Source: Octopus vulgaris
Lineage: Eukaryota
DNA: 64,000 nucleotides
Direction of reading: 5' to 3'
NCBI GenBank assembly: GCA_951406725.2
Contig: OX597815.1
Coordinates: 99,138,001 to 99,202,000, forward strand
The notes under the pieces were generated by a model. The model worked only from the letters and a program-made list of their open reading frames with translations, did not search any database and was not told where the DNA came from. Position numbers and translations under genes: made by a program. Below are positions 20,281 through 45,290 of this stretch, piece by piece. Every line of letters begins with the position of its first letter. Position 1 is the stretch's first letter.

Positions 20281-22088
20281 CTAGAAAGAAAAATCTAACA
20301 ATAGCAAGGGTAGACTACAAAAAAGCCTATGAGCCTATGACATCATCCCATGCTCATGGATAGGTGAATGTTTGAGAATATTCAGTATAGCAGACAATAT
20401 AAGATAATTAATTAGCTTTAGCACGGGGAAGTGGAAGAGAGGAGTTTTCCAAGGAGACTCGTTATCCCCTTTAATATTTATCTTATGTTTGATCCTCCGC
20501 AGTTTAGTATCAATGAAGACAAAGGCAGGGCATAATTTCAGAAATAGTGAGAGAAGAATTAACCATTAATTAACTATATGGATGATCCGAAGCCTTTTAG
20601 TAAGAACGAAAAAGAGAAAGATTGCAGACTGTAAGACATTTCAACGAAGATATAGGCATGGAATTTGGCATAGATAAGTGTGCAATATTAGTCATGAAAA
20701 GGGGACAGGTAGTCAACAGTGAAGTCATCCAATTACCAGATGGTCAGACATTAAAACCCTTAAAAGAAGGAGAGAATTATAAGTATCAAGGTGTATTAGA
20801 ATCTGAAAGAGTACTAATTATAGAATGAAAACGAAAATTTGGAAAATGTACATCGGAAGAGTAAAGAAGCTAATGAAATCAAAGCTAAATGGTCCAAATC
20901 TAGTGAAAACTGTAAATAGTTGGGCAGTATCTTTACTAAGATACTCAGAGCATTTGTAGATAGGACAAAAGCTGAATTAGCAAAGCTAGGCAGAACTACG
21001 AAGGGATTCAATATGAATGGGGGTCTCCGCCCAAGGGCAGAAGTAGCGAGATTGTTATTACCTAGAAAGGAAGGGGAAAGTGGGCTAATATAAGTAGAAG
21101 ACTGCGTGGAGTTAGCTAGATTACATATAGATTCCTATATAGGTAATAGTGAAGAAGGTTTATTAAGAGCTGCAAGAGTCACAGCAAGACAGAGGGAAAA
21201 CTAAAAAAAACAGACAAAGCTAAAATCCAGGAAAAAGAACAAAAGTTATCTGAATGTCAGGAGAAGGCGTTGCATGGTAGGTTACCAAAGATAGTTGCAG
21301 CAAATAGTAGTAGTGAGACATGGTCATGGTTGCATAAAAGAATAGCCGAAAAGGGAGACAGAAAGTAGGTTAGTAGCAGCACAAGATTAAGCATTAAGGA
21401 GTAATTGGATAAAAACTTTGAAGAATTACCATGCGCGTGCGCACACGCACGCACACAAGTAGACTCCTAATGTAGGTTATGCAAATCAAAGGAGGAAATT
21501 TTACTAATTTAGTAAGTGAATGTAGCATGCTGACGAAGAAAGAATACAAGAAAAGCCATGACGACCTAGGGAGAGTAAGCTTCTGGGAGTTATAGAGAAA
21601 GCTGATGGATGGTATGAACATGAACTTAGTAAAGTATTGCAAAGCAATAGACATAAGATTTGTGGGACTTTAACATTCAGACTGACAGATTAATTGAAGC
21701 TAGAAGGCCTGATTTAGTAGTAGTAGACAAAGGGGATTGAAAGTGCCAGATCATTGACTTTACGGCCCCATATGATGAATAAATCAATATGAGAGGTATA
21801 GAAAAAATAGAAAAATACCAGGACCTTGCCATTGAATTACATAGACTATGGAAAGTACGGGTAAAATGTATCACAGTAGTTATAGGTGCATTGGGAACTG
21901 CCTCTAAAGATTTGAACAGATGGATAGAGGAAATAGATATAAAACGCAGTTTAATGCAGTTCGAGAAAATAGTTTTATTAGTGACAGCTAAGATACACAG
22001 GAAGGTTCCTGGCATCTAAGGTTACTTGTTGTGGCCCGATGTCAGTAATTTTTCTTTTCCAACAGTCTACTTTGTTGTGTGCATATGA
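20281..22088 (+). mobile_element. R4/Dong-clade LINE family 1, 5'-truncated and degraded (RT + CCHC + RLE)
   Basis: Motifs VDYKKAY, FQGDSLSPLIF, YMDD, GMEFGIDKCA, RPDLVV..IIDFTAP, EKIEKYQDLAIEL, VVIGALG and KVPGI*. The short 3'UTR runs into (TAA)n. Confidence 0.88.
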
Positions 22089-22318
22089 ATAATAATAACA
22101 AATAACAATAATAAGAAGAAGAAATAATAATAATGATAATAATAATAATAATAATAATAATAATAATAATAATAATAATAATAATAATAATAATAATAAT
22201 AATAATAATAATAATAATAATAATAATAATAATAATAATAATAATGATAATAATAATGATAATGATAATAATAATAATAATAATAATAATAATAATAATA
22301 ATAATAATAATAATAACT
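22088..22318. repeat. (TAA)n microsatellite between Dong elements
   Basis: Direct reading. Confidence 0.97.
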
Positions 22319-22319
22319 A

Positions 22320-41548: not shown

Positions 41549-41617
41549 GTTGTTGTTATCATTATTATTATTATTATTATTATTATTATCATTTTTATTA
41601 TTATTATTATTATTTTA

Positions 41618-44600
41618 TTGTCTTAGCACAGCTCCTAACGCTGGAGATGTACTACGGTGCCAGCTGTTCACTACCAGTGAACTAAAGTAACAGCTCTTAT
41701 TTTTCGAGCACCTTCCAGAGTATTCGAGCGGTTACAAGCAGTACTGTTTTCTGCAAGTGCTCCACCCTTATATAGCAGCCCCTATTTGTTCTACGTACTT
41801 ATCGAGATTTTTGCTCACTGTTCCCAGGGCTCCGACAATTATTGGTACTACTGCTACCTTTTCCATCGACCACAACTGCTTAATTGCCCGAGCTAGCCTG
41901 TCATATCTCTCGACTTTTCCTTTTCCCTATCGTATACATTGTTGTCAGCTGGGCATGCTATATCTATGATCCAGCACAGTTTGTTTTCTTTCTCAATTAA
42001 GAATATGTCCCGCTTCCTATTCTCTATCTTATGGGCGCACTGAATCAAAACTCCCATGGAATCTTTGCATTTCAATTTTCGACGATACCTTCGGGTTTGT
42101 GGTCGTAGCAATTTTTTGTTCTGTTAAGTCCATACTTGTTACAAAGTATCCAATGTCTATATTGTCGTGGCGTCTTTTATATTCCTTCTGGGCTTGTGCC
42201 GTACATTGGCTGGTAATATGCCATACGATTTCACCGTTTTGTCAACAGATTCTGCACTTATCACTTTCTGCTGTGTTGTCTATTCTGTATTTTGTGTGGT
42301 TTGTTCGTAGTGCTTGCTCTTGGGGAGCACAGATTAGAGCCTTCGTTTCCCGTTTTAAATCATTTTTAGTCATCCAGAGCAATCTTTTTTCTCTGTCGTA
42401 TCTTCAACATCCCTATGAAATTGACCATGCATTCTTTTCTTTACCCACCTATTTTCAGTTTCATTCGTTTTCAATTTCTTGTATACTGCTTTATCTTTGC
42501 AATCTCTCATCCTACACAAGCCTGATCTTACTTCTAATAATAGCGGTGCTGTGGTATTTTTTACATACCATGCTATGTTGTTTTCTTCTGCTCTAATTCT
42601 GTGTTTGCATCCAATAGTCCTCTTTCCCCTCTTTGTCTTGGTTACATACAGTCTGTCTGTGTCACATTTTAGGTAGAGTGACCCATATCTTGTTAGCAAA
42701 TTCTTTGTCTTACTGTCTAAGCTGTTTAGTTCGTCTATTCTCCATGCGATTACCCCTGCACCGTATCTAAGGAGTGAAACCGCTCAGGCGTTCATAGCTT
42801 CGATCTTATTCTGTCCGTTTAATTTTGACTTAAGGATCAGTCTCAGTCTGCGTAAGAACTCCACTTTACATTTTTTCTCCATCAATTTATCCATTTCCAA
42901 AATCTCCAACTGCTTTAGCCCGTGTCTTCTACCTGCTTCATAACCTCCCCCGATGGTATTGTTAGCCCGTCCGTACATTTGATTTTGCTTCTCTTCACGA
43001 CTAACACACCACAATTTCTCATTTCGAACTCCATTGTAATATCAGCACTGACGGTATACACCGTATCAACGATGGAACTGACTTGGGATTCATCTTTACC
43101 ATAAATTTTCAGGTCATCCATGAATAATAGATGGTTAACATTTTGTTGGCAGCTTTTGAATACATACTCAACTTTTGCTTTCCTCGGAATCAGTGTTAGT
43201 GGTATCAAGCACAGTAAAAAGATCAGTGGGGGCAGGTAGTCCCTTTGGAAGATGCGCTTCCTAATTTCTACGGTCCCTAATATTCTTCCGTATGCTGTCA
43301 GGTCCGTCCTCCAATTCGCCATACTTTTTCCAAGCAATCGCTCAACATTCGATGCAATACCAAATAGGTTCATGTACTCCATAATCCAAGAATGTGGGAT
43401 CATATCGTACGCCTTACGATAGTCGTCGATCCATGACATGGCTAGTTACTTTTCCTCCTCTTGCAGTCTCTAAGTACAGAGTTGATCCTTGATACCTCTG
43501 CACTTATGCTTGCAACCCTTCTGCTCAGGTGACAGGACTCCGTTTTTTACAAGATGTTCGTACATTGACTCTGCGAGTATTCCAGTCAATAACTTCCACA
43601 TAAGTGGCAAACAGGATATAGGCATGTAATTGTCTACCGTATTGCCTTTTTCGATGTTCTTCAGGCACAGCAACGTCCTACCCAATGTCAACCACTCTTG
43701 TGTTACTTGGTCGGCATTTCACAAGGTGTTGAGTTTTGCAGCTATTCATGCATCACATTCACAAAATCTTTTGATCCAGTAGACTTGAACTCCATCTGGT
43801 CCCAGGGCTTTCCAGTTTCTCATATTTTTGCTGATTTTCTTCACTTCCGTAACTGAAATGTTTAGTTCTGCCTGTTTTGGACAGGTTACTGTTTGTTTCA
43901 GTTCTTGCAACCATTCAGCATCCTTCTTGTGCTCCTTGTATTTACTCCAGGTGTCACTCCAAAACCTTTGACTTTCAATGTTAACTGTTATCAATTTTTC
44001 ATCTGTAAACTCTCCATTTATTTCTTTATAGAATCACTTCTGATCTACTCTGAATAACCTATTCTGCTGGTAACCCTTCATTCTTTGGTCGTATCTTACC
44101 CGCTTTGCTTTCTTTGCAACAAGGCGCTGTTTCAGTTCCTCCATTACTTCTTTCAGGCCCTTTCTTTCCATATTATACTTTCTTTTCAGCGCCCTGTATT
44201 TTTGTTCGCATTTAAGCTCCCCTTTCTCTTTTCGGTCTAACACAGAGACTTTCTTCGAGACCATGTCTAACCCTGCTTGGATTCTTCTTTTCCACCATGG
44301 ATCTTTTCTTTTGTCACTCTTATTATGTTTCTTTTTGTTGACATCAACACCCATGTTTTCTGCTACAACAATACTTGCTGCCTTGATCAAATTATTTGTT
44401 TCTGTAATGTTTGTTTTGATGTATTTCAGAATTTCATTGACATTTTTCGTTTCTTGGTTCAATTTCCATCGATCAACCTTTTTAAGGTTGCAATTAATGT
44501 CGCTAGCGTTCTCCTGTAGTCTAAACTTTATTCTGCCCTAGATTGTCTTTTGTTCATCTGTCATGTCGCCATTAGTTTTATTTCTTCTTTTAGATAATCT

Positions 44601-45290
44601 ATATGTCTCTCATCAAGTAAACTACCACTGCTTCTTTCCTGTTCTATGAGATTACTCTTATTAGTAAGAACTGTATTTCCAATGTTATCTCTGCTGCTAT
44701 TTTCCATGACACGTCTTTGATAGCTTCGAGCTCTACTTCTATGAACCAACAATTTTTCCTTATTGCTCTAGCTTGATCACATAGTTTCTGTTCGGTAAGT
44801 TGAAACAATCCCTTTTCTCTCCAGTGATCATACATACGTTGTCGGTAACCCCTAATTTGAGCACCATTTTCGTCTACCGGGCTGCTCAGGTAGTAACACT
44901 CCATGACCACAGCATTAATTTGGTTGCTCCATCTACACCGTGTGTGGTGGGCCCTTTCTGGATATCGACAGGCGTGAGCCCGACCAGAATCTCTCAGTAA
45001 CATTGTCACCATAATTGGTTTCAGTTTCATTTCCGCCGTTATTCACAATAATTTGTTTTCTCATTGTCACTCATATGAGGTAGCGATTATCAGGTTGCGC
45101 AATTACCAATGTTTTTATTGTGACACCATCACTAGATGTATCATTAATCAGCCCATGAGGAGGCTCCATCCGCTTCCTTTCCTTATTTTTATTATTATCA
45201 TCACTGATATCACTGATATTATTGTTTTCATGTGTATTACCAGCATTAGTTGCATCAACAGCAACTGTAGTAAGGGTGGTTGTTAGGCCT
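41618..45290 (-). mobile_element. Near full-length R4/Dong-clade LINE (family 3), pseudogenised
   Basis: RWSNQIN..VMECYY...GYRQRM...[81 protein letters not shown]. The 3' end runs into (TAA)n. Confidence 0.92.

What the first reader, a model, noticed from the sequence alone, without database searches (positions are those of the whole stretch)
20281..45290. Strand-specific (TAA)n-targeting guild of at least three Dong/R4 retrotransposon families packed into one locus
Seen: about 8 RLE-type LINE pieces from three clearly different families, with three different 3'UTRs. All six intact 3' ends (22088, 24925, 25645 on +; 34646, 37317, 41618 on -) run into (TAA)n on the element's own sense strand, and most 5' junctions also sit at or near TAA runs. 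Plus-strand copies occupy 20-25.6 kb and minus-strand copies 34.6-45 kb. Known: Dong (R4 clade) elements target TAA repeats. Inferred: each insertion leaves or regenerates TAA target, creating a self-reinforcing landing pad shared by several families. That could contribute to this genome's microsatellite load and supplies several microsatellite-specific RLE integrases.
Basis: partly seen in the sequence, partly recalled or inferred. Interest (0 to 1): 0.72.

Follow-up and report, generated by a model that had tools for sequence, protein, structure and literature searches.

The report
Dong retrotransposons stacked in TAA repeats
Four families of jumping genes and one short non-coding element sit head to tail in runs of TAA repeats here, likely because their enzyme cuts TAA on one strand; this is known behaviour for Dong-type elements and common in this genome, and only the non-coding element, which likely borrows their enzyme, is less ordinary.

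Summary
Mostly confirmed, and mostly known. The region holds two separate head-to-tail arrays (+ 20278-25801; - 45438-34086), 8 kb apart, with eight pieces of four, not three, single-ORF RT/restriction-like-endonuclease families (30-48% protein identity) plus a 557-nt non-coding element, S. Targeting is real genome-wide: 35 of 43 young 5'-truncated copies, cut at 41 different points, abut sense (TAA)n (background 0.4%; antisense 7 of 309), and four insertions sit inside another repeat's pre-existing TAA run. TAA targeting by Dong is published for insects, molluscs and cnidarians, and Dong-R4 is a known large octopus group. The locus is not special: about half of the sampled family-C ends touch a same-strand neighbour. 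Self-reinforcement is weak: in 1 Mb of random DNA, element tails were hit no more often than other TAA runs (3/18 vs 12/71), and element-adjacent TAA is about 3% of microsatellite bases. R4 membership rests on architecture and target; no named Dong/R4 sequence was available for a tree. Extras: a covarying 3' hairpin shared by the families, and S, which uses the same target, strand and phase without detectable sequence sharing. The scan noted both before on other DNA.

The parts
20278..22088 (+). Family B copy, 5'-truncated in the RT, decayed; CCHC, RLE and 3' UTR with hairpin at 22007-22050
22088..22316 (+). (TAA)n run: tail of B and 5' flank of the next C copy
22312..23319 (+). Family C, 5' half of an older copy (full-length positions 364-1243, 84-86%), including the Myb-like N-terminal region
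23330..24006 (+). Unrelated repeat with a tRNA-like head (judged by eye) and a (GAA)/(CAA) run in place of the middle of that C copy
   Evidence: not analysed further
23965..24925 (+). Family C, 3' half of the same older copy (positions 3001-3964, 87%)
24925..25039 (+). (TAA)n run between two C copies
25040..25645 (+). Young family C copy, 5'-truncated at position 3358, 98%; TAA on both sides
25645..25801 (+). (TAA)n run ending the plus array; an opposite-facing L1/Tx1-like element abuts it
34086..34586 (-). Element S: decayed copy (80%) of a 557-nt non-coding TAA-specific repeat
34586..34647 (-). (TAA)n run between C and S
34647..36638 (-). Young family C copy, 5'-truncated at position 1971 (RT to 3' UTR), 98%
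36631..37312 (-). Compound (TAG)/(TAA)/(GAA) array holding two short duplicated remnants of a B 3' end
37317..38169 (-). Family B 3' part, fused at its 5' side directly to E without TAA
38139..41547 (-). Family E copy (fourth family): 5' region plus ORF with an internal deletion of about 600-700 bp; 3' end lost
41562..41618 (-). (TAA)n run: tail of D and 5' flank of E
41618..45380 (-). Family D copy, nearly full ORF, decayed; truncated at an AAT-rich stretch inside the family's own 5' region; hairpin at 41652-41695
45382..45438 (-). (TAA)n run, 5' flank of D

Best explanation
These are two head-to-tail arrays of Dong/R4-like retrotransposons and a short non-coding element, likely built by repeated insertion into (TAA)n runs by an element-encoded enzyme that nicks one strand of the repeat. 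Shown: single-ORF RT-CCHC-RLE anatomy, sense TAA on both sides of copies truncated at many points, insertion inside pre-existing runs, one orientation, one 3' junction phase, and a shared 3' hairpin. Inferred from R2 biochemistry: the protein binds its RNA's 3' hairpin, nicks the TTA strand, primes reverse transcription there and joins the often truncated 5' end to the upstream TAA with 1-6 nt of microhomology. Each insertion leaves TAA on both sides, so a site stays usable. Because TAA runs are scarce (89 per Mb) and shared by at least ten families, neighbours in the same orientation follow without any special landing-pad mechanism. S likely rides on a Dong enzyme in trans.
For: Intact 1,213-aa ORF in a family C copy (L039): RVT_1 E 3.6e-33; best solved relatives are R2 proteins, aligned over RT, CCHC and RLE (E 1e-35). 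5' flank with (TAA)>=4: C 46/62, S 59/83, B 18/46, D 15/45, E 6/14, others 20/59; antisense 7/309; background 0.42%. Young truncated C 35/43 at 41 points. Random sample 15/30. Four insertions lie between both arms of a repeat whose six empty copies carry the run. Neighbours: 58 same-strand against 3 opposite for C, B and S. 3' run begins AAT in 108/149 Dong ends (not de-duplicated, half family C) and 52/62 S ends, against 38/88 for all runs. Hairpin: 76.7% of cells paired against 62.7% shuffled and 33-46% slid. Published target: PMC7998251, PMC3812793.
Against: No named Dong or R4 sequence could be placed in the tree. Older families show TAA at only 33-43% of 5' ends; decay or reference limits are likely but untested. 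The Myb-like domain is unresolved (Z 4.5-5.6, tied with unrelated folds). No HDV-like ribozyme was found at 5' ends, unlike B. mori Dong (crude test). S shares no detectable sequence with the Dong library apart from one chimera and scores only 8.1 bits (E 8.3) on the hairpin model. Family-C ends have about twice the neighbours that TAA availability predicts, so scarcity alone does not explain everything.
Confidence: 0.85

Rival explanations
1. True positive feedback: insertions add TAA or make adjacent runs better targets, so arrays attract further insertions faster than other TAA runs.
For: Family C: 15/29 tails and 14/26 5' flanks touch a same-strand element, against 26% and 19% expected from TAA bases (p 0.003 and 7.5e-5). 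TAA-type array on both sides of young C copies sums to a median 162 nt (n=37), against 87 nt length-weighted for free runs. Pieces are overdispersed in 100 random 10-kb stretches (variance/mean 1.65, p 5e-5).
Against: Random DNA: tails hit 3/18, free runs 12/71; 4/18 and 13/71 with a looser array definition. S tails 6/25 (p 0.66), B tails 9/20 (p 0.05). Filled sites hold 66-166 nt of repeat, empty ones 22-172 nt (4 and 6 cases). The C anchors were the longest, best-scoring copies, so tolerant regions or a preference for long runs explain the same excess.
Confidence: 0.3
2. TAA is only a 3' tail made by the elements; arrays come from recombination or local duplication, and 5' TAA is the previous element's tail.
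For: All families end in (AAT)n; some local duplication exists (B-end remnants at 36.9-37.1 kb; six near-identical C17 loci).
Against: 10 of 26 C copies and 16 of 25 S copies have 5' TAA with no element upstream; truncation points differ; insertions lie inside another repeat's run; neighbours belong to different families and ages.
Confidence: 0.03
3. S is not Dong-mobilised: it rides on another TAA-preferring retroelement (an RTE, L1/Tx1 or Penelope family), or is the remnant of a Dong family that I did not sample.
For: No sequence sharing with at least ten sampled Dong 3' UTRs; hairpin model score not significant; an O. vulgaris annotation lists 51 Dong-R4 families, far more than I sampled; another abundant SINE also often has TAA at its ends.
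Against: Same target, strand, 3' phase and 5'-truncation pattern as Dong; the L1/Tx1-like element here faces the other way; the weak hairpin hits all fall on the same S stretch 54-98 nt from its 3' end.
Confidence: 0.3

Closest known systems
Dong (Bombyx mori), DongAg, DongBg, Darwinula Dong1/2; R4/Dong clade (PMC7998251 and PMC3812793, passages read)
   Same: Single ORF with RT and restriction-like endonuclease, no N-terminal zinc finger, (TAA)n target.
   Different: At least ten coexisting families with distinct 3' UTRs in one genome; no 5' HDV-like ribozyme found by a crude test, whereas B. mori Dong has one (PMC3774820, passages read).
'Dong-R4' LINEs of octopus annotations (PMC13282606, passages and whole supplement read; PMC8967140, passages read)
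   Same: Abundant, many families, some young: 51 families, 92.7 Mb, five recently active in O. vulgaris. Family C here is 97-99% identical between copies with an intact ORF.
   Different: Neither main text contains the word TAA; target, arrays and a passenger are not in the passages seen. Sequence identity to their families could not be tested.
R2 retrotransposons (PDB 9nl3, 9dou, 8gh6)
   Same: RT-CCHC-RLE order; model for the primed reverse-transcription mechanism.
   Different: Only distant similarity (E 1e-35); R2 has N-terminal zinc fingers and a 28S rDNA target.
R2 SIDEs (PMC3414825, abstract read) and Entamoeba SINEs (PMC2657916, passages read; their link to R4-type LINEs is recalled)
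   Same: Short non-coding elements that use a site-specific or RLE LINE in trans, as proposed for S.
   Different: SIDEs are built from their partner's ends; S shows no such sequence sharing and is very abundant (13 pieces per Mb).

Membership tests
R4/Dong clade | Single ORF with RT followed by CCHC and PD-(D/E)xK restriction-like endonuclease | tested here: met
   L039 ORF; motifs seen in all four window families
R4/Dong clade | No N-terminal zinc fingers (unlike R2) | tested here: met
   No CxxC pair in the 440 residues before the RT; no Pfam hit in the N-terminal 232 aa. Family C only.
R4/Dong clade | Divergent N-terminal Myb/SANT domain | tested here: inconclusive
   Confident helical model (pLDDT 84); SANT/Myb chains among top hits (Sap1 Z 5.4; DMAP1 Z 4.5, rmsd 2.0, 53 aligned) but tied with unrelated folds
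R4/Dong clade | RT groups with named Dong, R4 and Rex6 against R2, NeSL, Hero, CRE | not testable with these tools
   No named reference was returned. The tree (midpoint-rooted) only shows the families among about 1,200-aa insect, crustacean and unnamed homologues.
Dong | Insertion into (TAA)n in one orientation | tested here: met
Dong | 5' HDV-like ribozyme | tested here: inconclusive
   No Rfam hit; home-made descriptor found none in C, D, E or S but fired on 3 of 20 shuffles and had no positive control
SINE / SIDE (for element S) | Short, non-coding, fixed 3' end, variable 5' truncation | tested here: met
   557 nt; longest open frame 59 aa; 3' end intact in 72/83; start at base 1-3 in 44/83
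SINE / SIDE (for element S) | tRNA-, 5S- or 7SL-derived head | tested here: inconclusive
   No Rfam match on two good copies; ARAGORN found nothing in the window; a diverged head would be missed
SINE / SIDE (for element S) | 3' end shared with a partner LINE | tested here: not met
   No match to the sampled Dong families except one unique chimera; many families were not sampled

The most novel reading that the evidence does not exclude
S is a very abundant (roughly 35,000 pieces by extrapolation), structured, 557-nt non-coding RNA element that hijacks Dong enzymes through a structural mimic of their shared 3' hairpin rather than through shared sequence, and so takes on their TAA specificity; with the intact family C protein this gives a natural two-part, microsatellite-specific insertion system.
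Probability: 0.35. Interest if true: 0.55.

Novelty: new member of a known kind. Interest (0 to 1): 0.27.

Why it matters
The core is known biology with new members. It adds a target site to a large, partly active octopus-type LINE group whose annotations do not mention one in the text I searched, and it identifies an intact, young RLE protein with thousands of multicopy, mostly non-coding targets that could be assayed beside R2. The shared 3' hairpin and element S make a testable question of how RLE proteins choose their RNA. It does not support a major role in the genome's microsatellite load.

Tried and rejected
Named Dong/R4 references: two homologue searches and one cluster look-up returned none; the original Dong paper is not held. 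Single-sequence fold was unusable (pLDDT 44); Foldseek gave no match at E<=0.001. Rfam gave only low-complexity hits in the region and on five loci. A Dong family ending in the S tail (L205) proved to be a unique chimera: none of the other 39 top matches extends into the S part. My first detector library was contaminated with common SINEs; it was masked and rerun, and six weak or outlier hits were dropped before the density count. D upstream links (10/10) were left out of the orientation count because D has an internal AAT run. Sequencing runs: no RNA holder listed for S; no reads were laid. Paper searches for a Dong-mobilised short element, TAA targeting in octopus or a Dong 3' stem-loop gave nothing relevant; subscription journals and Repbase/Dfam entries are outside that library, so this does not show absence from print.
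Full report
Setting. The window is G000:C2:99138001-99202000 of a 2.8-Gb animal genome in 227 contigs, AT-rich and full of microsatellites. It is likely an octopus; that is an inference from genome size and repeat make-up, not established here.

What is in the region. A family C copy elsewhere (L039) has an open frame of 1,228 codons, 1,213 aa from the first Met, with RVT_1 (E 3.6e-33), a CCHC knuckle and an RPD..D endonuclease; its best solved relatives are R2 proteins (E 1e-35). 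tblastn with it finds eight pieces in 20.3-44.4 kb. With nucleotide references they resolve into two contiguous chains. Plus strand: B (20278-22088), TAA, C 5' half (22312-23319), unrelated repeat and GAA/CAA run, C 3' half (23965-24925), TAA, young C (25040-25645), TAA. Minus strand: TAA, D (45380-41618), TAA, E (41547-38139) fused to B (38169-37317), compound array, young C (36638-34647), TAA, S (34586-34086). The 8.3 kb between them hold other repeats. Families B, C, D and E are 30-48% identical as proteins between representative copies, and C lies in a different subtree from B, D and E (broken frames read with X; midpoint root; no named references). First-look candidates in the genome: C 2,552, D 6,668, B 3,337, E 2,493, S 9,776 (not copy numbers). 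The top C copies are 96-99% identical to the window's, D 82-88%, B 75-81%.

Target or tail? I scored the 45 nt before each 5' end in de-duplicated loci. Sense (TAA)>=4: C 46/62, S 59/83, B 18/46, D 15/45, E 6/14, other families 20/59. Antisense: 7 of 309. Random 45-mers: 0.42% sense, 0.47% antisense. In 100 random 10-kb stretches (drawn from 17 contigs of known length), 15 of 30 junctions had sense TAA. For young truncated C copies the figure is 35 of 43 at 41 different points, and for truncated S 14 of 26. The lower rates in old families may reflect later breakage and incomplete references; I did not test this. A tRNA-headed repeat carries an internal AAT run (six empty copies, 22-172 nt); in four copies a full-length C or an S sits between its two arms with TAA on both sides, in the same orientation. 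So the run exists before insertion. Earlier notes call that host repeat a Penelope terminal repeat (e1-9561493, e1-10100147; not checked by me). The 3' run begins with AAT in 108 of 149 Dong ends (not de-duplicated, about half family C) and 52 of 62 S ends, against 38 of 88 for all runs. At 22 direct C junctions the overlap with TAA averages 1.95 nt against 1.03 simulated (p 0.0006); 16 further junctions had extra bases or were not placed cleanly, so this is exploratory.

Is the locus special? Random DNA holds 17 Dong pieces (6.6 kb) and 13 S pieces (5.3 kb) per Mb after dropping six weak hits; counts are overdispersed. This is a lower bound: an O. vulgaris annotation gives Dong-R4 92.7 Mb in 51 families (PMC13282606 supplement). 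The window region is far denser, but it was chosen for that. Among loci anchored on a copy, same-strand neighbours through a TAA-type array are common: C 15/29 downstream and 14/26 upstream, B 9/20 and 5/9, S 6/25 and 9/25; three opposite-strand links in all. With a link rate of 0.3-0.45, 3-13% of elements would lie in chains of five or more. A four-member chain turned up in the random sample (L142) and a three-member one 37-41 kb past the window. At least ten 3' UTR families appear in the loci, ending in AAT runs where the end is intact.

Self-reinforcement and microsatellite load. Of 89 TAA runs in the random Mb, 30 touch a Dong or S element on the same strand and one on the other. Tails were hit in 3 of 18 cases and free runs in 12 of 71 (4/18 and 13/71 with looser arrays). 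Against TAA-base expectations of 26% and 19%, C shows a twofold excess (p 0.003, 7.5e-5), B is borderline (0.05), S is mixed (0.66, 0.035). Arrays around young C copies sum to a median 162 nt against 87 nt length-weighted for free runs, which fits net gain or a preference for long runs; the four filled and six empty sites overlap. TAA makes up 4,197 of 57,022 perfect microsatellite bases counted, and element-adjacent TAA 1,662. Many free runs adjoin other repeats, so targets have several sources.

A shared 3' RNA hairpin. In 26 copies from nine families a motif lies 58-79 nt before the tail: outer stem, three-base bulge, six-pair inner stem, five-base loop. On 20 rows, 76.7% of cells pair, against 62.7% in shuffles (0/500) and 33-46% in slid controls; 10 of 13 pairs change on both sides, which 60 of 500 shuffles also reach. 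The structure was drawn from these sequences, which favours it. A model built on it recovers all six window 3' ends (11-34 bits; same families as the training set) and one family left out of training (L262:5125-5168, 17.7 bits). It is likely the RNA tag for the protein (inference from R2). The scan noted this hairpin before (e1-9809270).

Element S. 557 nt, longest open frame 59 aa, no match to Dong proteins, 79-100% identity among 30 full copies, folding z -3.97, no Rfam family; runs of seven coded organisms hold it. It behaves like Dong at both ends but shares no sequence with the sampled families; the one apparent case is a unique chimera. The hairpin model gives it 8.1 bits (E 8.3), always at the same place 54-98 nt from the 3' end, which is chance level. 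I put Dong mobilisation at about 0.65. I found S before reading earlier notes; e1-10333100 describes what appears to be the same element in another genome.

Comparison with print. PMC7998251 (passages) states that R4/Dong elements have RT and RLE, a divergent Myb/SANT domain without zinc fingers, and a (TAA)n target in most insects, molluscs and cnidarians. PMC3812793 (passages) lists Dong, DongAg and the snail DongBg as TAA-specific. PMC3774820 (passages) reports a 5' HDV-like ribozyme in B. mori Dong. PMC13282606 (passages, supplement) and PMC8967140 (passages) report Dong-R4 as abundant and partly active in octopus without mentioning TAA. PMC3414825 (abstract) and PMC2657916 (passages) give the nearest passenger cases.

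Verdict. Real, strand-specific TAA targeting by new members of a known kind; an ordinary pair of arrays; weak support for feedback; small share of the microsatellite load. The passenger element and the shared hairpin are the parts worth an experiment.

Noticed in passing
window 25804-27420 (-): L1/Tx1-like LINE fragment (zf-RVT E 6.8e-5; the class label is my inference) whose 3' end runs into (ATT)n, tail to tail with the plus array; two of three relatives with a visible 3' end do the same, so it may use the same repeat in the opposite direction.
   Followed up: partly
window 34086-34586 (-); L232-L260: Element S, 557-nt non-coding TAA-specific repeat, about as abundant as Dong pieces in random DNA.
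   Followed up: yes
L038, L239, L247, L250, L116, L150, L163, L207: tRNA-headed repeat with an internal (AAT)n run that serves as a ready-made target; earlier notes call it a Penelope terminal repeat with a hammerhead.
   Followed up: partly
window 45844-46637, 13800-14207, 16842-17495, 7745-8174: A very abundant short repeat; a sixth to a third of its ends touch TAA runs, so it may supply or share targets.
   Followed up: no
L261/L265/L266/L268 against L263/L264/L267 and window 40700-41547: Family E has two unrelated 5' regions; one resembles the 5' end of another repeat seen at window 9138-9262.
   Followed up: no
L033, L035, L039, L041, L046: Short duplications of the element's own first bases at C 5' junctions, up to ten tandem 20-nt copies in L033, suggesting repeated priming or template jumps.
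   Followed up: no
L067-L070, L075, L076 (contig C17): Six near-identical loci with the same internally deleted D copy and neighbours, differing in TAA tail length: a segmental duplication useful for measuring slippage.
   Followed up: no
P0001, P0002: Insect gene models that fuse two or three head-to-tail Dong-like copies, so such arrays also occur in butterflies and beetles.
   Followed up: no
window 31500-32130 (+) and 30660-31320 (+): LINE 3' fragment with C2H2 zinc fingers and a fragment that looks mariner-like by eye (no Pfam hit).
   Followed up: no
L169:1-986, L219: Two RLE-like fragments on a very long branch apart from all Dong-like families, without TAA flanks: possibly another RLE clade.
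   Followed up: no
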